A DNA stretch of 64,000 nt from Lytechinus pictus. Taxonomy: Eukaryota. How positions within the stretch are numbered: position 1 is the first letter of the stretch; each line of letters begins with the position of its first letter. Positions 826 to 31,427 of this stretch are shown one piece after another. The position numbers and the translations under genes are program-made. The notes below the pieces were generated by a model, which made no database searches, was not told the origin of the DNA, and worked only from the letters and a program-made list of their open reading frames with translations. The DNA lies in the NCBI RefSeq assembly GCF_037042905.1, contig NC_087262.1, positions 25,420,001-25,484,000 of the forward strand. Reading direction: 5' to 3'.

Positions 826-1311
826 ATTAACACGTCTACAAGAACATAATTTCGGAGTAAGAATATTATCACGTTGGCTTGTGATATTTGGATGATGTAA
901 GACTAGACCACAGGCGCTTTGTAAGAAGGAGGCATATCGTATAAACGAAGCCCTTCACAGTTTTTAGTCACAAACCAACTCGTCATCGATGGAGAGTTCC
1001 ATCGAACACATTGAATTAAGATGATTTCGCCCTGTAGAGTCGAACGTGTTCGGACTTTTAAATATTGAATTTTAAAGAAAGCGTCACTGTTATTTTTTCA
1101 TGATTTTTTAGTATGGCTGGATTTCTCATATTTATATAGAAGAACTGGATGGACGTTCCTTTATATAACATTATGGTTATTTCTTTTTCTGAACATAACA
1201 AATGATTTTGGATGTGTGTATCGGAAAATAATGTAGCCTGATTTCAATACTTATGGACGTCAAAGTTTGACATGAAATCTTATATATATATCTTCCATTC
1301 CTTTTTTGCAG

Positions 1312-1508
1312 ATTGTTAAGATGATAGTGATAGTAGTGGCTGTCTTTGCCATATGCTGGCTACCACTCCATGCCTACCACTTCATGACGTATCTGAACTT
1401 TGATGCATTAACGGTGAAGGGAAGCCGTCATATCTACATTACAATATGGCTGATAGCTATGAGTAGCTCCATGTACAACCCTTTCATCTACTGCTGGCTA
1501 AATGACAG
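1312..1508 (+). CDS. Tacr: Tachykinin-receptor-like class A GPCR, penultimate coding exon (TM6-TM7)
   Basis: Acceptor ttttttgcAG ends at 1311. The exon reads IVKMIVIVVAVFAICWLPLHAYH...WLIAMSSSMYNPFIYCWLND(R), with CWLP (TM6), AMSSSMYNP and NPxxY (TM7) motifs. Donor ag|GTAATT at 1509 (phase 2). The motifs and both exon boundaries match the tachykinin receptor family; RYamide/luqin receptors are the nearest alternative. Confidence 0.9.
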
Positions 1509-1724
1509 GTAATTATCAGATTAAACTACAAATCTCCTGATTGTACTTTGTACTTCGCAGAGATCCATTTTATATTAGTGGATTTCCGAAAGAGTTGTCT
1601 TTCTTCAGTTATATTAAATTATATGGAATCATATGTTATAGTAGGATCAAGTCAAACCTATTTTTCAGCGAAATAAAAATATTAAAAGCACGCAGTGATA
1701 ATTAAGAATTCGTAACATAAGGGG

Positions 1725-13370: not shown

Positions 13371-13674
13371 TAGGGCATTTTAGCAATCACTTTGCAGACG
13401 CTTTCTATAAAGCAGATATTCTTTTGTTAAAGCCTTCCATTACAAAGCAGCCTTTGCCGAAAATTTGTGAATCAAGGCAGCAGTGTTGTCCTGAACCTTG
13501 GACAAACTACATTTTTGCAATTATTCGTCCGGTCAAAATCTTTAGACAATGTGCTGTTCAGGTCCATCAACAATCGACAATGACCTCTAATCTGTCCATT
13601 GTGATTTGACCGGCATTTTCAATAGATTCTGAACTTCCAGAAATCGTCTGCGAAGTGAATACTAAAATACTCTA
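13371..13674. mobile_element. MITE-like repeat (possibly PIF/Harbinger) downstream of the GPCR stop codon
   Basis: Imperfect TIRs tagggcattttagca / tactaaaatactcta. Its body resembles 1725-1935. Confidence 0.55.
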
Positions 13675-14180
13675 CTGACCGACTGTCTAACTTTGACCAT
13701 TGCTCTTGTATGAGAGCATCTTATAAGGACCATGAAACAAAAAAACTGATCTTCCTCATTAACTCCTCCAATATGTCCAACCTATATCAAATCTATATTT
13801 TTTGGATAAAAATTGAGGTTGTAATTGATGGCATTTGTCTCCATTTTGGGGCTATCCCACGAGTATTACGAACAAGAAAGGGGTATTGCATTCTGTCAAT
13901 GTGAAGCAGGTTAATTAGTTGTCTTCAGATATACGTTGTATTTTTAACCCCAGTTTAGTTTTAATGTCTAATGCCATCTTGTTAAATTCATAGAAGTAAA
14001 ACGGAAGGATTTGACTCCAAATGATTTCTGTATTTATTTACCTGTTAAAAGAGTACATGTCTCATATCATTTTGTATTCCAATCGTTATATAAACGATTC
14101 ATTATAAATGTGTTGATGACCTGCACAATATGCGAGCATGATTTTTTTTTTATTATTTGTCGATGACTCAGCGTAAAGAC

Positions 14181-20823: not shown

Positions 20824-23800
20824 TCGCTATTTGGGTTGGGCGGAGGAGGGGGGGGGGGGGGACCCTTTGCCATATGCTGTTTTATTAATAGATGAAAATC
20901 AACGGGGAACGCCTCCCCCCATGAACGTCAATGGATCCGGCATTGATAAGGATTGTTGACAGTAATGTAGTAATTTCGTTCACTTCATTGTCCCATTTCA
21001 GAATGTATGGATATAACATCACAGGAAAACAGAATAGTTTGTTGATTAATACGCACTGTTAGTTATGTTGTTACATACAAAAATAGTTATTTATGTCATT
21101 ATAATGTCTTATGGGCGAGAAATTATTTCGTTTAATTTTGTTTCTCGTTTACACTTTACATGTTATTTGGTATAATTCTATATTGTAATCAGTTAAAATA
21201 ATTAGCGAGATCCTTTACCTATAAATGATTGTTATAAACGATATCGATAATTCAGAATGTTGGCGATAGAATAATGATGTTTACTGTGTCTATATTTTTT
21301 TGTATATGTAACGCCATGAATAGACAGACGAATTTACTTACCTGTCCAGTTTGATTCTCAGTAATTTTTGGAAAAGGAATTGAAGTAGCTATTGATTTAC
21401 CCCTGCGTTACTGATCGATGACCTCGTCTTTTTGAAACACACAAACAAACAAAAAGAAACCGTTAATGCACAATGTCACAGTCACACTTGTGAAATCTAC
21501 TCTAGACCGACCAAAGCTTGAACGTTATTTCCACTGTAATAACCTACGGTCGGTTTGCAGTCGATTTCGTTCGAGTGGCTGTGTCTAAAAGAGACATCAT
21601 TCCTCTGTCTCTCACGTTGAAGTAGTATGCAGTGATTGTATAACGAATGAAGTGCGTATTATTGCATTGGATTGTGTTGTATATTTTCCACAAAGGATAT
21701 AAAGAAAGAACTAGCCTATGCCATTGCCTGTTTGAATAAATGAGATATGTATGTACATATATATGAATTGCCATACGTCGACTCATTTGTTTGTGTGTTT
21801 TGTATGTTTTTTCATAATCTCTTATAACAATAATAATGAATAACCAATAATTCAAGAGCGTTGTGAAATCAGATTGAAATTTGAAAAGTCATGGGATCAA
21901 CGTGAGTGAAGGTTCAATAATGAAAATGAACAGTTATCCTTATATACTGTTTACTGATTGATTCTAAATTTGGCTGATTATTAGTTTTGGACCGCTCTCT
22001 CGGTGACTGTTATTAAGATATGTTAATGAAAACATTTCTATTTTTTACCTTATGAATTATTTTAATAAACTTATGTATGTTTTTTTATTCATACAGGAAG
22101 AAATACAAATTACGAATAAAAAATAAATCCGTTCATCTGGACTTACTGTTATTGAAACGAAAAACAGTTTCACGTCCGATCCGGGACGCTTCTTCAGCTC
22201 GTCTTAACTGGCGGGAATTATTTTAATGTTTCTCAAGAAATATATACGAAGATTGTATCCTATAACCTTTTTCTCCAATTCCACGCTTAACAATTGGTTT
22301 TGTATATTAAATACCCCCACCCCCACTAAAACCAACTTACTCAGAATTAAATTGTACTCATTCATACATAGCAAAAATCAGGTTATTTATTGCATGGCAG
22401 CCCGCAATATAAACGTTTTTGTTCGCGTCAGAAAAGTGATGCCAGTTTAGTCTTCGTATCCATGGTAACATTAGCGGGAATTTTTCGACACCCGTCCTAT
22501 CTGGTGTTAGCCTGAAACGCAGCTGATGTTGCTTTCAACACTTCTCTCATGTGGACAAAATGAAATAGATATTCCTAACATCCCCAAGACTGCTGTTCGA
22601 CATTGTAGTTCGTTAGACCACATTATTATTGCATTCGTATTGATTTCCCCCCAATACCCTCAAAAGAAATGTGAATCAATCACAAAGTCATTTAATATTT
22701 CATTTACAGTATCTTATCACAAGCCATGTCCTCGCTCCAAGGTAAAGTTCATCAGAGATTTCGGTCTGGAGATTTTTTTTTTAAAAGACAATCATAATTT
22801 TCATGACTTTTCCAGGCTTAACAAGACTATGCATAATTCATGCTATATATAGTATAAAGCTGGATTTTACTCCCCCATGTTCTCAATCTCTTTGAACTGC
22901 AGAAGATTTATTGAAGTAATGGGATTTTTAAAAAGTAAGAACTGACCCTTGGAAAAGAGAAATTATGAAATCGACTTTTATCATGTTTATGGAACATTTT
23001 CAGAAATGGACATCGGATAATGCTATTCCTTCCGTTGTTTGTCTCTACAAAGATTCCACCCATTCCTTCCATCACTGCATATGTCGTTAATGTTATAAAT
23101 ATTCAGATTTTATTAATTTCCCTTAACTACCTGATCAGATTTATTTCCCGTCACTTTTCTATATACCCCCCCCCCCTTCTGCCCTTGATATCAAGCTCCA
23201 TTCCATCTCCTATTAGTAGCACATTTTGGCATCTTCTTTGCAGATGCTTTATACAACGTTCAGAATCTATTGAAAATATCCGTCAAATCACAATGGACAG
23301 ATTAGAGGTCATTGACGAAACTTGGTGGACCGGGACAGCACATCAGACTCGAACCTGACAAAAAATTGTCAATATGTCGTTTGTCCTGTGTCTAGGAGGA
23401 CACTGCTGTTTTCATTCACCAATAATTTTCAACAAAGGCTGCTTTGTTGTTAAGGCTTTGGACAAAAGAATATGTGCCATAAAAATGCCCTATTAATTAA
23501 TTCACATAATCATTTAACATCTTTTTCAAGCTTTGCCCCCCCCCCCCATTCAAGAGCGGCTCCACATGGGATGAGGCACCGCCCTTATCATTACACAAGT
23601 CTTAAAATAAGGAGGAGGAAATCAGAAGAAAAAATAGAAAACAGAAGAATAAAGGGCATCTAACATGTCTAACAGATGTGTATTATTCGTGTAATTTTAT
23701 AAAACCCTTAGAAAAAAAATATATTGCCCCTCTAAAAAAAACAGGGGTAGGCCCTGCCCCTAGTTCAGTATCTCCATCATGCCTATGCTATACGTCACAC

Positions 23801-24356: not shown

Positions 24357-24760
24357 CAAGGTGCCCTTGAACCAGCATAACAAGGCACTAGCTTACCTGA
24401 TGATGGGGCGGGGGGGGGGGGGAGGGAAGGCCAAAATATATCAATATATTAATAATTGCCTCATCATATCTTATTTTGGGGGTATCAGTGGTGTTGTTCC
24501 TGTAAACATTCATTTATTTATTTTTATTTTTATTTTTTATAAAAACATAAATTCAAAAGGACAAAAAATACAGATACAAGATCGTTTCATTTCATACATA
24601 CAAACTTTAATCAACAGATAAATTTTGATATTCTTACCCATGTCGAATGCTAAGTTTTATTATTGAAAATGTTTCGTGCTTCGCTCGCTCACATACACGT
24701 GTTTACGTTAAGATTATGTCCTTTTGTTTTCCGTTCTCCCCCCCCCCCTTTTTTTTTTTA
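24357..24760 (+). repeat. ~404-bp direct repeat, copy 1 (left flank of the L2)
   Basis: Near-identical to 27616-28020. Visible differences are limited to homopolymer runs and a 1-bp indel (tcaaaaggac vs tcaaaagac). Confidence 0.95.
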
Positions 24761-27615
24761 ATTATTATTATTATTATTACTTATTATTTGTACTGCGCTT
24801 TTCCCATTAGGCCCAAAGCGCTTACAATGAATTAATTAAATGTAATATTTTAAAAACTACAAAGTACGAAAAAGATGAGTTTTTAATGACTTTTTGAAAA
24901 TTGCTAATGTTGGAGACTGTCTAATTATTAGTGGCAGGTCGTTCCAGGATTTTGAAGCCGACACTGTAAAAGTTCTGTCACCAGCTAATGTACGAGTTAA
25001 TGAATATGTGAGGCGAAGGTAATCACTGGCCGACCTAAGTGCTCTAGTTGGTGTATACAGATTCAAGCAGTTACTTAAATACTGTGGAGCCTGTTTATTC
25101 AGTGTTTTGTAGACAATCAAGAGTAATTTGAACGTAATTCTCTGTTTAAAAGGAAGCCAGTGAAGAGAATTAAAGAGTGGTTGGGAAGGATGATCTCGGG
25201 AAACCTGTAAAATTAATCGTGCTGCCCAATTTTGTAGTCGTTGAATACGAATTAATTGATTAGAGGGAATTGTAGAAAGGAGCCCATTGCAATAATCAAT
25301 ACGAGACAGAACCAATGAACGAACAGCATTGTGACAGGCAGACTGGTCAATGAACCTTCTGATTCTAGAAATGTTCCTTAAATAAAAAGTGACTGTGCTA
25401 CAGATATGAGAGATATGGTACGACATTGACATGCGGGAATCAAATATGACACCAAGGTTTCTTATTTTTTCTGATGGTCTAAAGAGTGTACCATCAACAT
25501 CAAGTTGAACATTTGGAAGATTGCGCAAGTTATAAGTAGAGGCCGCAACAAAAAATTCAGTTTTTTTGTCATTTAATTTTAGCTTATTCACTATCATCCA
25601 CTGTCTTATATCTGATATACAATTCTGGAGTTTAACCAGTGCATTATTGAGAGCTCCAGGAGTCTTCGGATCAAAAGAAACGTATAGTTGTATGTCGTCA
25701 GCATAAAAATGATAATTGATACAGTGATTTCGGATGATGTCGCCAACTGGAAGAGTATATATTGAGTAGCCTATGGGTCCGACTATTGACCCCTGAGGGA
25801 GTCCAAATTCTAGAGTTATGGGATTTGACAATGTGCCGTCAATATCAACTTGCGAAGTCCATCCAGACAGGTATGATTGGAACCAGGATAAGACTTTGGA
25901 CCTAACGCCTATTCTATTGAATAACCGAGATATGAAAATGTTATGATCTATTGTATCAAACGCGGCAGATAAATCTAACAGCACCATACAAACTACATTA
26001 TTTGAGTCGAGAGAAAACATGATATCATTTTTTACTTTGATCAGAGCTGACTCGGTGCTGTGACCTGGCCTATAGGCAGATTGGAGAGGATCAAAAATAT
26101 TATTAGATTCAATATGATCAGCTAGTTGAGTACATGCCGCCTTCTCGATGAGTTTACCTAGAAATGTTAAGTTTGAGACCGGTCTATAATTACTGATGTC
26201 ATTTACGTCCAACCCTGATTTCTTCAAAAAAGGTTTGATGATTGCTGAATGTGCTTGATCAGGGAAAATACCTGTAGAAAGAGATTGATTGATTACATTT
26301 GTGAGCAATGGTAATAAATGAACAATGTTTTCTTTCAAAAACCATGTAGGAATCGGGTCAAGTCGGGAGGATTTAGTAGCCGAAGACATAATGATTCTGG
26401 ATACATTTGACTGAGAAAGCACCTGAAATTCTGCGAAAAGTGGAATATTTTGATTTTCAGTATCACTAAACTGAATGTTAACAGGTACAGTACATGCATC
26501 AAGTTCAGCTCTTATTCTCCTTATCTTGTTGACAAAAAACAAAGAGAATTGATGAGCTAATCTGGTTGCAGATTCGTATAAGGGAAGTTGATTCGACTTC
26601 TTGTTCAAAAGTGAATGAATGATCTGATATACCTCCTTGACAGAACACGAACCTAACTTTTCTTTCAAGAAATCTTCTTTAGCGGTATCAATGATTTGAC
26701 ATACATTCCTATTAGCTTCTATGAACAATGTGCGATCTGAATCTAGTCGTGTTTTACGCCATTTACGTTCTGCTTTACGTCGGTGCTGGCGAGCAACAAG
26801 TACAGACTGATTAAACCAGGGTCTACGTCGCTTCAGAGGGCGGGACTTGGTTGAAGATGGTGCACAGGTATCGAGTACCTTAGTGACGCCAGAAACATAC
26901 CAGTCAAAAAGAGACACATTATCTAAATCTTCTGGTTGAGATGAAACTAAGTCAAGTAAAGCATTACTGAATTGAGCTTTATCAATCTTGCGATAATTAC
27001 GTAAGGAAGAAGTAACAGAGACTGGCTCTGATTTCTGATGAGCCAATAAAAAACGAATCATATAATGATCAGAAATACAAGTGTCGAATGTGTGACACTG
27101 TAAGATAACTGAGTCATCTCTGGTAAAAACTAGATCTAAAGTATGACCAAGATTGTGTGTTGGACCTTGGACATGCTGAATGAGCCCAGCCGAAGAAATG
27201 GTGTTCCTCATGTGAAGCACATCATTTTTATTCATATCTTCCCAATGGACGTTGAAATCACCTAATAACACCAATTTTCCTGGACATAGTGATATCTCAC
27301 ATATGTATTCATCAAATTCCTTCAAGAAGTCAGAACTTGTGAATCTATTTGCTGAAGAAGGGGGTGGTCTATACACAATGAAAAAATGGATAGAGCTTGA
27401 CAAATCGGTAATATGAGCGCATTCAAATGTGGCAAACTTGAAATCTATGTTCTTAATCTTTAATTTGAGCATACTTTTATACAGTACTCCAATCCCTCCT
27501 CCACGTTTACTTGCGTCTCTTGGAGAGTTAATGAATGTATATCCTATAGGAGTGCACTCCCCTATTGATACATTATCCTGATTACTTAACCAGGTTTCTG
27601 TAATGCACAAAACAT
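24761..27615 (-). mobile_element. 5'-truncated L2-clade LINE retrotransposon
   Basis: APE+RT reading frame, ~95-bp 3' UTR with a GCGCTTT...AAAGCGC stem-loop (24795-24821), and a (TAA)n tail at 24761-24779. No ORF1. Confidence 0.93.
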
Positions 27616-27637
27616 CAAGGTGCCCTTGAACCAGCAT
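24857..27637 (-). CDS. LINE ORF2: AP-like endonuclease plus reverse transcriptase (926 aa, uninterrupted; first ~7 codons come from flanking DNA)
   Basis: APE motifs ITETWL, GGGIG, YRPP, GDFN, TLDL, SDH. RT motifs YRPVS, DLSAAFD, PQGS, YADD, LGV. L2-type C-terminus LHWLP...RITFK...WNDLP...FKKSLKTHLF. Confidence 0.92.
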   Translation of the reverse strand: MLVQGHLDVLCITETWLSNQDNVSIGECTPIGYTFINSPRDASKRGGGIGVLYKSMLKLKIKNIDFKFATFECAHITDLSSSIHFFIVYRPPPSSANRFTSSDFLKEFDEYICEISLCPGKLVLLGDFNVHWEDMNKNDVLHMRNTISSAGLIQHVQGPTHNLGHTLDLVFTRDDSVILQCHTFDTCISDHYMIRFLLAHQKSEPVSVTSSLRNYRKIDKAQFSNALLDLVSSQPEDLDNVSLFDWYVSGVTKVLDTCAPSSTKSRPLKRRRPWFNQSVLVARQHRRKAERKWRKTRLDSDRTLFIEANRNVCQIIDTAKEDFLKEKLGSCSVKEVYQIIHSLLNKKSNQLPLYESATRLAHQFSLFFVNKIRRIRAELDACTVPVNIQFSDTENQNIPLFAEFQVLSQSNVSRIIMSSATKSSRLDPIPTWFLKENIVHLLPLLTNVINQSLSTGIFPDQAHSAIIKPFLKKSGLDVNDISNYRPVSNLTFLGKLIEKAACTQLADHIESNNIFDPLQSAYRPGHSTESALIKVKNDIMFSLDSNNVVCMVLLDLSAAFDTIDHNIFISRLFNRIGVRSKVLSWFQSYLSGWTSQVDIDGTLSNPITLEFGLPQGSIVGPIGYSIYTLPVGDIIRNHCINYHFYADDIQLYVSFDPKTPGALNNALVKLQNCISDIRQWMIVNKLKLNDKKTEFFVAASTYNLRNLPNVQLDVDGTLFRPSEKIRNLGVIFDSRMSMSYHISHICSTVTFYLRNISRIRRFIDQSACHNAVRSLVLSRIDYCNGLLSTIPSNQLIRIQRLQNWAARLILQVSRDHPSQPLFNSLHWLPFKQRITFKLLLIVYKTLNKQAPQYLSNCLNLYTPTRALRSASDYLRLTYSLTRTLAGDRTFTVSASKSWNDLPLIIRQSPTLAIFKKSLKTHLFRTL

Positions 27638-28020
27638 AACAAGGCACTAGCTTACCTGATGATGGGGGGGGGGGGGGGGGAGGGAAGGCCAAAATATATC
27701 AATATATTAATAATTGCCTCATCATATCTTATTTTGGGGGTATCAGTGGTGTTGTTCCTGTAAACATTCATTTATTTATTTTTATTTTTATTTTTTATAA
27801 AAACATAAATTCAAAAGACAAAAAATACAGATACAAGATCGTTTCATTTCATACATACAAACTTTAATCAACAGATAAATTTTGATATTCTTACCCATGT
27901 CGAATGCTAAGTTTTATTATTGAAAATGTTTCGTGCTTCGCTCGCTCACATACACGTGTTTACGTTAAGATTATGTCCTTTTGTTTTCCGTTCTCCCCCC
28001 CCCCCTTTTTTTTTTTTTTA
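27616..28020 (+). repeat. ~404-bp direct repeat, copy 2 (right flank of the L2)
   Basis: Starts caaggtgcccttgaaccagcat and ends cccc-tttt-a, as in 24357-24760. Confidence 0.95.
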
Positions 28021-28087: not shown

Positions 28088-28176
28088 TTAGGGTTAGGGT
28101 TGGTGTTAGGGTTAGGATTAGGATTAGGGTTAGGATTAGGGTTAGGAGGTAGAGTTAGGGTGTGTTACGATTAGGG
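28088..28176 (+). repeat. Degenerate interstitial (TTAGGG)n tract
   Basis: About 14 hexamers of TTAGGG, TTAGGA and variants. Confidence 0.85.
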
Positions 28177-28490
28177 TTTTTCGAGGAGTGCCCCCCCCCC
28201 CCCTCTCCCGTGATCGTGGAAAATGTCTTACATGTCGTTTTGATTGACATATCATTATCAGAATATCTGCTTGTCGCTGTCCCAGATGGCGCTATTTAAT
28301 ATTACAATCATGACAATCATTGCCGTAATTATGTGGTCTTCATCGTCTCACTAATTACATTTACCAAAACTTTTTTAAAATAATGAATTACAAAATAACC
28401 ACTTTATTGTTGGAAACCCACATAATAAAAGAATCTACAGCATACACCTATTGTCATTAGGGTAATCTTTAGGTTTTTGAAAAATATACA

Positions 28491-29060
28491 TTAAAGGAGA
28501 ATGAAACCCTTGAAACCAGCTGAATCCATAACGAAGAGAAAAATCAAAGAAACATATTGTTGAAAGTTTGAGCAAGATTGAATGAATAATAAGAAAGTTA
28601 TGAGCATTTGAATGTCGAGATCACTAATGCCATGTAGATCCTCCCATTGGCAATGCGACCAAGATCTCCCTCATTACTTTAGTACTTATTTCACTTATAT
28701 TCTCACTTTTATAGAGTCTATCACAAGGTGAGGTGTTCTCTTTATGAGAGGACAAGTACAGAGGTTTCACAACATTATATCATTGATGAATCATTTATCA
28801 CATGATAAGAATGAGCAAAAAGAGATGTTTTGGGGTATATTTTCAGTGTCCAAAAGGGGAGAGTTGTTCATCTGTGACATCATAGATCTTGGTCGCATTG
28901 CCAATATGAGGATCTCCATAGCATTAGTGATCTCGACATTCAAATGCTCATAACTCTTCTATTGCTAGTCCTATTTTACTCAAACTTTTGTTGATCTTAT
29001 TCTTTGATTTTTCTGCTTTCACAAAAGCTAACTTGCTCCAAGAGTTTCATTCTCCTTTAA
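28491..29060. mobile_element. TTAA-flanked fold-back MITE (Kolobok-like AG...CT termini)
   Basis: TTAA|AGGAGAATGAAAC...GTTTCATTCTCCT|TTAA, with long internal inverted arms (e.g. 28597-28666 vs ~28884-28955). Confidence 0.85.
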
Positions 29061-29770
29061 TACAGTCCTCGTCGTGATATCAGGTTTTGATTCTTTTTCT
29101 TCATTTCATTCCCATAATAAAAAGTAATGTTTAATATGTAGGGAAAGGCGGGATAAGTTGAGCATAGGGGCAAGTTGAGCCACCACCCCAGGCAAATAAT
29201 GAGTGAGTCAGACATTGTGGTGGTGTCATGTATTGATGGCCCATTACATTACTTTAACCCCACCACATTATTTTAAACTTTGAAACAAAAAATACGTTTT
29301 AAGAGGGAAAATACAAATTTCAGCCAAAAAAGAAAAAAAAAGTGTGAAATATATCAGTGTTTTTACCCACACACGTCTTTAAATATAATAAAGAAATAAG
29401 AACAATATTGTTAGTCCAGGTATGGATTCTCATTTATGTCATAGTCTTTTACATGATGGATGCACAATAAATGTATGGATTTGAAAATATCGCAGTAAGT
29501 TCGGACTGGGGTAATTTGAGCCAGCCAACATGGGGCAAGTTGAGCCATAAAATCAGTACATGTGTCTTTTTATAAATTTATATGGAAGGGGAAACCTGAC
29601 AAAATAAGCAGGAAATAGATTGTTTGTAACTATGAAAATGGTGGACTAAAATGATCGATGTTGGACAATTTTCTAGAGCTTTGAAGCTGCCTTGGATAAG
29701 AAGAATACTGTCAAATTCATGTGAAGAAGTTTCCCATTTAATGTATGCATTTTTGAAACCATTAGTATTA

Positions 29771-30155: not shown

Positions 30156-31427
30156 GAATGGGGTAAAGGGGATATATATTTCATTAAACTATCCCCCATG
30201 TTCCAAAACAGTTTTTGGAAGGAAATGTTTATTATAGTTTCCTCCTTTATTCGAAATGTTCAGTGTACTTCTCTTTTTTTGACCGGCTATTCCTTTATGG
30301 TACAATTCTGATGTAAAAATTATTGGAGGAAAAGGTATATTCTTAAAGGAATGGTGGGACAAAGGCATTAGATTTATTAACGATTTATTAGATGAGAATG
30401 GAAAACCTTTGGAAAGAGAAGAGTGTGAAAACAGATTTTCAATCAAAATTCAGTTTCTTCATTATTATGCCCTATGTCAGATTATCAAATGTAAGTATAA
30501 AGCTCAGTTGAATACGTGTAATATGAAATCTAATGAACCAATATGCCCTGCTTATATCTCTCATGTACTGAAGGACAAAAAGGATGTAGACATGTAAAAA
30601 CTATATCATATCATGTTAAAAGAAAATTATGATAACTTGATTAAATTGTGTAATAGACTGATAGATGGCTTGTCAATGGCATTTCGATGGACACCAGAGA
30701 TGTGAATAATTATTTTAAAATAATGTTTCGATGTACAACTTATACTACAATGAGGTACTTTCAGTACCGACTACTAAATATGATATTATATTTGAATAAG
30801 GATCTTGTAAAGATGAAAATAACTGTAGATGCAAAATGCTCTTTTTGTGGAAGGGAAGAAGAAAACGCCATACATTTTTTTAATCAATGTCATGTGGTAA
30901 ATCTTATCTGGGAACGATTTACATATTGGTTATTCAAATTAACAAGCTTTAGAATAAATATATCTGCTGTACATGTTTTGTTTGGTTTCACAGAAAAAAG
31001 AAACGATGCTTTAAATTGTTTAATAATTTGGACGAAACAACAATTATACTCTGCTCGTGTGGAAAAGACCATACCTAGTTTTGAGAAAATTAAACAATAT
31101 ATAAGAAAATGTTACAAATATGAGAGGCAAATTAGTATTATGGAAAACAAAACACATAAATTTGATAAAAAATTGGTTAATTTCGAAAGAATACTTGTCA
31201 TTTTGTAATAAGATTTCCGGACCTTGATATCTATTTCTGTTTAATGTAAACATATTTCCATGATGAATATGCAGTGTGTTTCGGGTTAGAGGTGATCAAT
31301 TATTGTTGGAGGGGCCTTGTTCGGTGCTCATTGTTTTTGCTGCTGCATGTGTCGGCGGCGGAACGGATGGGCGTAGGGCATGGCCACTCTAGGGATTGGT
31401 TGACTTTTGTTTGAAACGCCCTGTAGA

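What the first reader, a model, noticed from the sequence alone, without database searches (positions are those of the whole stretch)
24357..28020. Young L2 LINE flanked by a ~404-bp target-site duplication
Seen: 24357-24760 and 27616-28020 are near-identical direct repeats that abut the element exactly. One ends at the (TAA)n tail, with ...ttta microhomology as expected for TPRT priming; the other begins at the 5' truncation point. Known: LINE TSDs are normally under ~20 bp, and L2/CR1 insertions often have short or no TSDs. Inference: second-strand cleavage or repair synthesis occurred ~400 nt from the first nick, so the insertion duplicated host DNA. The result mimics LTRs and could excise the element cleanly by recombination. 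Flush junctions at both ends argue against a simple haplotype-merge artefact.
Basis: partly seen in the sequence, partly recalled or inferred. Interest (0 to 1): 0.7.

Follow-up and report, generated by a model that had tools for sequence, protein, structure and literature searches.

The report
L2 LINE with 404-bp target duplication
A young, front-truncated jumping gene (an L2-type LINE) sits exactly between two near-identical 404-base copies of otherwise single-copy host DNA that were likely duplicated when it inserted, a rare but already described outcome rather than a habit of this family.

Summary
24357-24760 and 27616-28020 are direct repeats with no substitution, only two single-base indels and a T-run of 11 versus 14. 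They abut a 2.86-kb, 5'-truncated APE-RT LINE that is 99.5-99.8% identical to sister copies. The unit matched only these two places in the genome. Among 140 family loci (112 independent insertions), only this copy has a long flush duplication of unique DNA. So the unit is target DNA, not part of the element. One correction: the microhomology is 3 nt at the 5' junction; the 3' 'ttta' is one base out of register. No read data spanned the locus, so misassembly is argued against, not excluded. Long TSDs are in print: 1,228 bp for ZfL2-2 (PMC2666801) and over 100 bp for L1, with solo-LTR-like loss already proposed (PMC5223499). A blind look at three other LINE families found a ~330-bp and a ~90-bp case. 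The scan noted this before on other DNA, twice in this genome. Verdict: real, rare, known kind.

The parts
24357..24760 (+). Duplicated target, copy 1 (404 nt), next to the LINE 3' tail; ends in T11 plus A
   Evidence: the unit matches only the two copies in G000
24761..24786 (-). LINE 3' tail: (TAA)n repeats preceded by the family's TAATAAG unit
   Evidence: shared by family copies
24788..24827 (-). Predicted 3'-UTR stem-loop with internal loops, of the stringent-type LINE kind
   Evidence: -15.2 kcal/mol, z -2.98, 0 of 200 shuffles fold as well; compare ZfL2 tails in PMC4176376 (passages)
24857..27618 (-). 5'-truncated ORF2 (APE endonuclease plus reverse transcriptase), frame still open; starts at position 1055 of a 3,914-nt longer copy (L035)
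27616..27618 (.). [quoted passage not shown]
   Evidence: longer copies and the target share the same three bases here
27616..28020 (+). Duplicated target, copy 2 (405 nt), next to the LINE 5' end; ends in T14 plus A at the inferred first-nick site
   Evidence: the nick site is inferred

Best explanation
This is a young, 5'-truncated L2-type LINE flanked by two near-identical 404-bp copies of single-copy host DNA, which were likely made during insertion as a long target-site duplication. Inferred steps follow. The endonuclease nicked the plus strand at the end of the T-run near 28020. The freed 3' end primed reverse transcription on the (TAA)n tail. Synthesis stopped after about 2.86 kb. The opposite strand broke about 400 nt away, near 24357, instead of the family's usual 0-10 nt. 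The cDNA end annealed to that DNA end through 3 nt of microhomology, and host gap-filling copied the 404 nt twice. The duplication is a sporadic repair outcome, not a family trait. Recombination between the copies would restore the empty site exactly, but that is untested. I put 0.85 on 'made during insertion' and 0.62 on this particular route.
For: Shown: flush junctions at both ends, no substitutions between the copies, and a 99.5-99.8% identical element, so duplication and insertion are equally young. The unit matches only here. Longer family copies continue upstream with their own sequence. 1 of 112 independent insertions has the feature, 0 of 111 once this copy is left out (95% upper bound 3.3%). 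Short TSD-like matches of 5-10 nt occur in 32 of 83 insertions against 12.5% in mismatched controls, in line with the 3-5 bp L2 peak cited in PMC4245944 (passages). Contigs from two other studies (X4, X5) join the left flank to the unit across 24357, so the unit is native to this site. The same geometry turned up blind in an L1/Tx1-type family: about 330 bp with no mismatch between copies, while other genomic copies of that target are 98% alike at best. Precedent: a 1,228-bp TSD in 1 of 25 ZfL2-2 inserts in wild-type DT40 cells (PMC2666801, passages); L1 TSDs over 100 bp explained by a distal nick (PMC5223499, passages).
Against: No read or contig was seen spanning either LINE junction or the empty site. 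The 3' junction has no clean priming microhomology, and the T-run beside the tail is 3 nt shorter than in copy 2. Three small length differences exist although a fresh TSD should be identical; all are in or beside homopolymers and may be sequencing error or slippage. The sequence cannot tell a distal nick from replication restart. The genome search scores only the best candidates and skips simple repeats, so 'single copy' is a strong hint and not a proof. A 3-nt microhomology can arise by chance.
Confidence: 0.62

Rival explanations
1. The duplication was made during insertion but by replication restart: the TPRT intermediate broke a fork, and break-induced replication or a template switch re-copied 404 nt, leaving the LINE at the junction of a small tandem duplication.
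For: The product is the same. bioRxiv 10.1101/2024.12.14.628481 (passages) treats small 1-10 kb tandem duplications at L1 sites as large TSDs and suggests break-induced replication. The 3-nt 5' microhomology fits.
Against: The size is below the 1-10 kb range in that paper. There are no templated insertions or extra rearrangements at the junctions. Nothing here discriminates it from a distal nick.
Confidence: 0.23
2. Assembly artefact: the filled and empty haplotypes were merged, or an overlap was written twice.
For: No spanning reads were seen. The differences between copies look like homopolymer read errors. Several similar cases in one assembly could share a software cause.
Against: It needs a chimeric join at the exact LINE truncation base that also shows microhomology. 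There are no substitutions between the copies, whereas contigs of other runs differ from the window by 5.6-7.6% here. At 3% heterozygosity about 12 differences are expected (P of 3 or fewer = 0.002), but at 1% the test has no power (P = 0.42), and this individual's heterozygosity was not measured. There is no N nearby. A diverged ~90-bp case (87-89%) in another family cannot be a fresh merge.
Confidence: 0.07
3. Post-insertion rearrangement: a longer LINE with an ordinary short TSD was later truncated by a microhomology-mediated switch to the empty homologue at 24357.
For: It explains the 5' truncation and the 3-nt microhomology in one event.
Against: 5' truncation with microhomology is ordinary for L2 inserts (about 50%, PMC2666801). 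The two copies would come from two haplotypes yet show no substitution. It needs a second rare event soon after insertion.
Confidence: 0.05
4. The LINE landed by chance at the joint of an existing tandem duplication, or the unit is part of the element (an LTR-like repeat).
For: Family members do land in tandem arrays (L034, L046, L095) and inside an older duplication (L051).
Against: Those cases are either multi-unit arrays or not flush. Hitting the single joint of an 808-nt duplication is very unlikely. The unit accompanies none of the other 139 family loci examined and matches only twice in the genome.
Confidence: 0.03

Closest known systems
Long TSD (L-TSD, over 20 bp) class of ZfL2-2 (L2 clade) inserts; Suzuki et al. 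2009, PMC2666801 (passages read)
   Same: L2-type element, long flush duplication of target DNA, rare (1 of 25 in wild-type DT40; 1 of 112 here).
   Different: That case is a 1,228-bp de novo insert in cultured chicken cells. This one is 404 bp in an invertebrate genome assembly, with no known empty site.
L1 inserts with large TSDs in HeLa and NER-deficient cells; Servant et al., PMC5223499 (passages read)
   Same: TSDs over 100 bp, a distal second-nick model, and the proposal that recombination between long TSDs removes the element as in solo-LTR formation.
   Different: Different clade and host. No repair defect is known here, and the rate here is far below the 57-91% seen in NER-deficient cells.
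Small tandem duplications at L1 sites read as large TSDs; bioRxiv 10.1101/2024.12.14.628481 (passages read)
   Same: The LINE sits at the junction of a head-to-tail duplication.
   Different: Those are 1-10 kb, somatic (cancer genomes and cell clones), and attributed to break-induced replication.
2A-bearing single-ORF APE LINEs; Odon et al. 2013, PMC3708506 (passages read)
   Same: A longer family copy (L035) has one long ORF starting with a leader and a 2A-like motif before the endonuclease, with N in place of the canonical E as in the active STR-197_SP.
   Different: This copy is truncated downstream of the 2A-like motif. The clade (L2, Crack, CR1 or Rex1) was not tested by a tree.

Membership tests
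Long target-site duplication (L-TSD) of a LINE insertion | Direct repeat over 20 bp flush with both element ends | tested here: met
Long target-site duplication (L-TSD) of a LINE insertion | The repeat is host target DNA and is absent from other family copies | tested here: met
   2 genomic matches only; 0 of 139 other family loci; joined to the left flank in two other studies
Long target-site duplication (L-TSD) of a LINE insertion | The empty allele carries exactly one copy | tested here: inconclusive
   No contig bridged the empty site; rows at repeats were dropped by the tool
Long target-site duplication (L-TSD) of a LINE insertion | The structure is confirmed on single molecules | not testable with these tools
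   All 20 runs listed were short-read contigs, with no long or raw reads
L2 clade LINE | APE endonuclease plus RT in one ORF | tested here: met
   Pfam PF03372, PF14529 and PF00078, no other family at E 0.001
L2 clade LINE | 3' stem-loop followed by short tandem repeats | tested here: met
   (z -2.98); the ZfL2 tail layout is described in PMC4176376. The feature is not unique to L2.
L2 clade LINE | Short TSDs (3-5 bp peak for L2 and CR1) | tested here: met
   41 of 83 with none found, the rest 4-10 nt, with an excess over controls; PMC4245944. Shared with CR1.
L2 clade LINE | RT phylogeny places it in L2 rather than Crack, Daphne, CR1 or Rex1 | not tested
LTR retrotransposon | Terminal repeats belong to the element and travel with it | tested here: not met

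The most novel reading that the evidence does not exclude
This animal's germline has a host-set route that finishes a small share of LINE insertions of any clade at a break 0.3-0.5 kb from the first nick. The cases are 404 bp here, about 330 bp in an L1/Tx1-type family found blind, and 398 bp (RTE) and about 500 bp (L1/Tx1) in unchecked earlier notes. Such inserts would be self-erasing, so population long reads would measure both the second-strand step of LINE integration and traceless LINE loss in a natural germline.
Probability: 0.2. Interest if true: 0.55.

Novelty: new member of a known kind. Interest (0 to 1): 0.3.

Why it matters
How the second strand is cut and the 5' end joined is still poorly understood in LINE integration, and the long-TSD evidence I read comes from cultured or cancer cells. 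A clean, young example in an invertebrate genome, with a family-wide denominator (1 of 112), shows that the outcome also occurs in nature and is rare. If the 0.3-0.5 kb lengths cluster across clades, the host sets the distance. Such inserts could also vanish without trace and bias insertion counts. The single locus has no evident functional effect: no Pfam match was found in the ORFs in or beside the duplicated unit.

Tried and rejected
1) Read support. All 20 runs found were short-read contigs. X15-X18 covered the LINE and repeats but barely the unique flanks. X1, X2, X4 and X5 gave no contig across either LINE junction or the empty site; X5 record 25 has 251 letters beyond 24730 that the output does not place, and one joint and 28 loose ends at repeats were dropped by the tool. 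X2's contig passes 24357 by only 23 letters and was not counted as a bridge. This is inconclusive, not negative. 2) SINE idea: 25 short hits looked like a partner SINE; 21 proved to be one 72-nt tail inside a larger dispersed element and were counted once. 3) False long TSDs rejected: L051 (older tandem duplication, not flush); L034, L046, L095 (tandem arrays); L005, L010, L011 (arrays, 1.5-kb flanks); L155 (83%, not flush), L083 and L149 (not flush); L247 (has a 16-bp TSD). In arrays a long TSD could not be recognised. 4) L142 duplicated L134 and was dropped. 5) Limits of the survey: eight long copies had only about 0.85-1.0 kb of 3' flank; 17 and 30 pattern matches were not listed; my clustering may leave a few non-independent pairs (L129 and L170 share 3' flanks with clusters). 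6) A fourth comparison family was listed, but its flanks were not examined. 7) Gilbert et al. 2005 (PMC1190285) is not held and is known only as cited in PMC5223499 and PMC4245944. No supplements were read; Tables S4-S5 of PMC2666801 may list further long TSDs. 8) Searches for long TSDs in sea-urchin LINEs or natural L2/CR1 copies (listings only) showed no such title, which is weak evidence of absence. 9) A nucleosome-multiple or Okazaki-fragment explanation of about 400 bp was considered and not adopted: the lengths seen here are 404, about 330 and about 90 bp.

Full report
Observation. The two repeats are at the stated coordinates: 24357-24760 (404 nt) and 27616-28020 (405 nt). They differ by one base inside the poly-G, one base after an A-run, and a T-run of 11 versus 14, with no substitution. 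Between them, on the minus strand, lies a LINE with an open 929-aa frame carrying endonuclease and reverse transcriptase domains, a predicted 3' stem-loop (z -2.98) and a (TAA)n tail. It is 99.5-99.8% identical to its 14 closest long sister copies and begins at position 1055 of a 3,914-nt longer copy. No N lies within 5 kb.

Junctions. At the 5' end the last three bases of the target equal the three bases that precede the truncation point in longer copies, a 3-nt microhomology at 27616-27618. At the 3' end the plus strand reads T-run, A, then (ATT)n. The join is blunt or carries one added base. A T after the last whole TAA unit is the family norm: 92 of 122 loci scored.

Target or element? A search of the genome with the unit gave two matches, the two copies; the tool warns that this does not prove rarity. 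Longer family copies continue upstream with their own sequence. I examined 140 loci of the family in 10-kb stretches, the focal copy included, which collapse to 112 independent insertions. Only the focal copy has a long, flush, high-identity duplication of unique DNA. Apparent cases were tandem arrays or not flush. Leaving out the focal copy the count is 0 of 111, with an upper 95% bound of 3.3%. In the first 83 insertions, 41 had no TSD of 4 nt or more by my exact-match script (the focal copy among them, being beyond its length limit) and 42 had 4-10 nt; matches of 5 nt or more were 32 of 83 against 12.5% in 600 mismatched controls. This agrees with the 3-5 bp peak for L2 and CR1 cited in PMC4245944 (passages).

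Is it an assembly artefact? No run with long or raw reads was listed, and no contig spanned a LINE junction or the empty site. Contigs from two studies (X4, X5) cross the left edge at 24357, which shows the unit attached to its left flank in other animals; these and X2 differ from the window by 5.6-7.6% and may be a related species. If the copies came from two haplotypes differing by 3%, three or fewer differences would have P = 0.002, but at 1% P = 0.42, and this individual's heterozygosity is unknown. An artefact also needs a chimeric join exactly at the truncation base with microhomology. I put it at 0.07.

Other families. To see whether long duplications recur, I checked three other young LINE families found in the fetched DNA. 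Family of L102: none among the 25 of 30 loci that keep the 3' end, though several lack a defined 5' end. Family of L106: one insertion, present as two loci (L230, L231), among the 17 of 30 loci with a 3' end, with a flush ~90-bp duplication at 87-89%. L1/Tx1-type family of L176: 1 of 20 copies (L254) with a flush ~330-bp duplication and no mismatch between copies, while many of the others have exact matches of 7-17 bp. The L254 target lies in another repeat, but its two copies match each other at 100% and other genomic copies at 98% or less. Flanks there were 1.2-1.5 kb, so longer duplications would be missed. Earlier unchecked notes report 398-bp (RTE) and ~500-bp (L1/Tx1) cases in this genome and 160-438 bp cases in other genomes. 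I did not verify those.

Mechanism. Shown: the geometry, the youth of both parts, the 5' microhomology and the rarity. Inferred: a first nick at the end of the T-run near 28020, priming on the tail, a stop after 2.86 kb, a second break about 400 nt away, annealing through 3 nt and gap filling. Replication restart gives the same product and cannot be separated by sequence. Recombination between the copies would restore the empty site exactly; this is untested.

Comparison with what is known. Suzuki et al. (PMC2666801, passages) define L-TSD as over 20 bp and report a 1,228-bp case in 1 of 25 ZfL2-2 inserts. Servant et al. (PMC5223499, passages) report TSDs over 100 bp in at most 10% of HeLa L1 events and in most NER-deficient events, propose a distal nick, and propose loss by recombination akin to solo-LTR formation. 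bioRxiv 10.1101/2024.12.14.628481 (passages) reads 1-10 kb tandem duplications at L1 sites as large TSDs made by break-induced replication. The locus therefore works like, and meets the sequence criteria of, an L-TSD insertion, with the empty allele unseen. L2 membership rests on architecture alone; no tree was built. That the host is a sea urchin comes from earlier notes and was not tested here.

Verdict. Real, well supported as an insertion-generated long duplication, rare in its family and already described in kind. Interest 0.3. The bolder reading, a host-set 0.3-0.5 kb route shared across LINE clades, is not excluded (probability 0.2) and can be tested by a genome-wide scan.

Noticed in passing
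L254 (G000:C4:12615576-12617302): A 5'-truncated L1/Tx1-type copy with a flush ~330-bp duplication, no mismatch between copies, nested in another repeat family.
   Followed up: yes
L230 and L231 (G000:C21): An older LINE copy with a TAAG-type tail and a flush ~90-bp duplication at 87-89%; the whole locus is itself present twice at 97%.
   Followed up: partly
L035:5488-7290 (+): The long copy of this family has a single ORF starting with a hydrophobic, signal-like leader and a 2A-like motif before the endonuclease; no ORF1 was seen in the 3.9-kb copy.
   Followed up: partly
L081:3671-10000 continuing to L175:5316; 21 loci: A dispersed element of about 10.6 kb at 97-99% identity carries one 72-nt tail of this LINE. 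It has sharp ends and a short subterminal inverted repeat; one copy (L176) holds an L1-type insertion. The class is not determined.
   Followed up: partly
L061/L079/L097/L149, L091/L092/L093/L156, L102/L103, L166/L167, L010/L011: The same truncated insertion recurs at several places with shared flanks, so it was spread by duplication or by a carrier element.
   Followed up: no
window 28490-29061: A very high-copy element with terminal inverted repeats (MITE-like), 470 bp right of copy 2; related foldback elements at 51926-52477 and 59866-61076.
   Followed up: no
window 28088-28178: A degenerate TTAGGG-like tract 70 bp right of copy 2.
   Followed up: no
window 23215-23477: A ~260-bp dispersed repeat at about 80% to many genomic copies, with relatives at 1725-1933 and 13412-13676.
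   Followed up: no
window 53217-53495 (+), 1276-1509 (+), 30657-31205 (+): A homeodomain exon, a rhodopsin-family GPCR exon and a zf-RVT fragment of another LINE.
   Followed up: no
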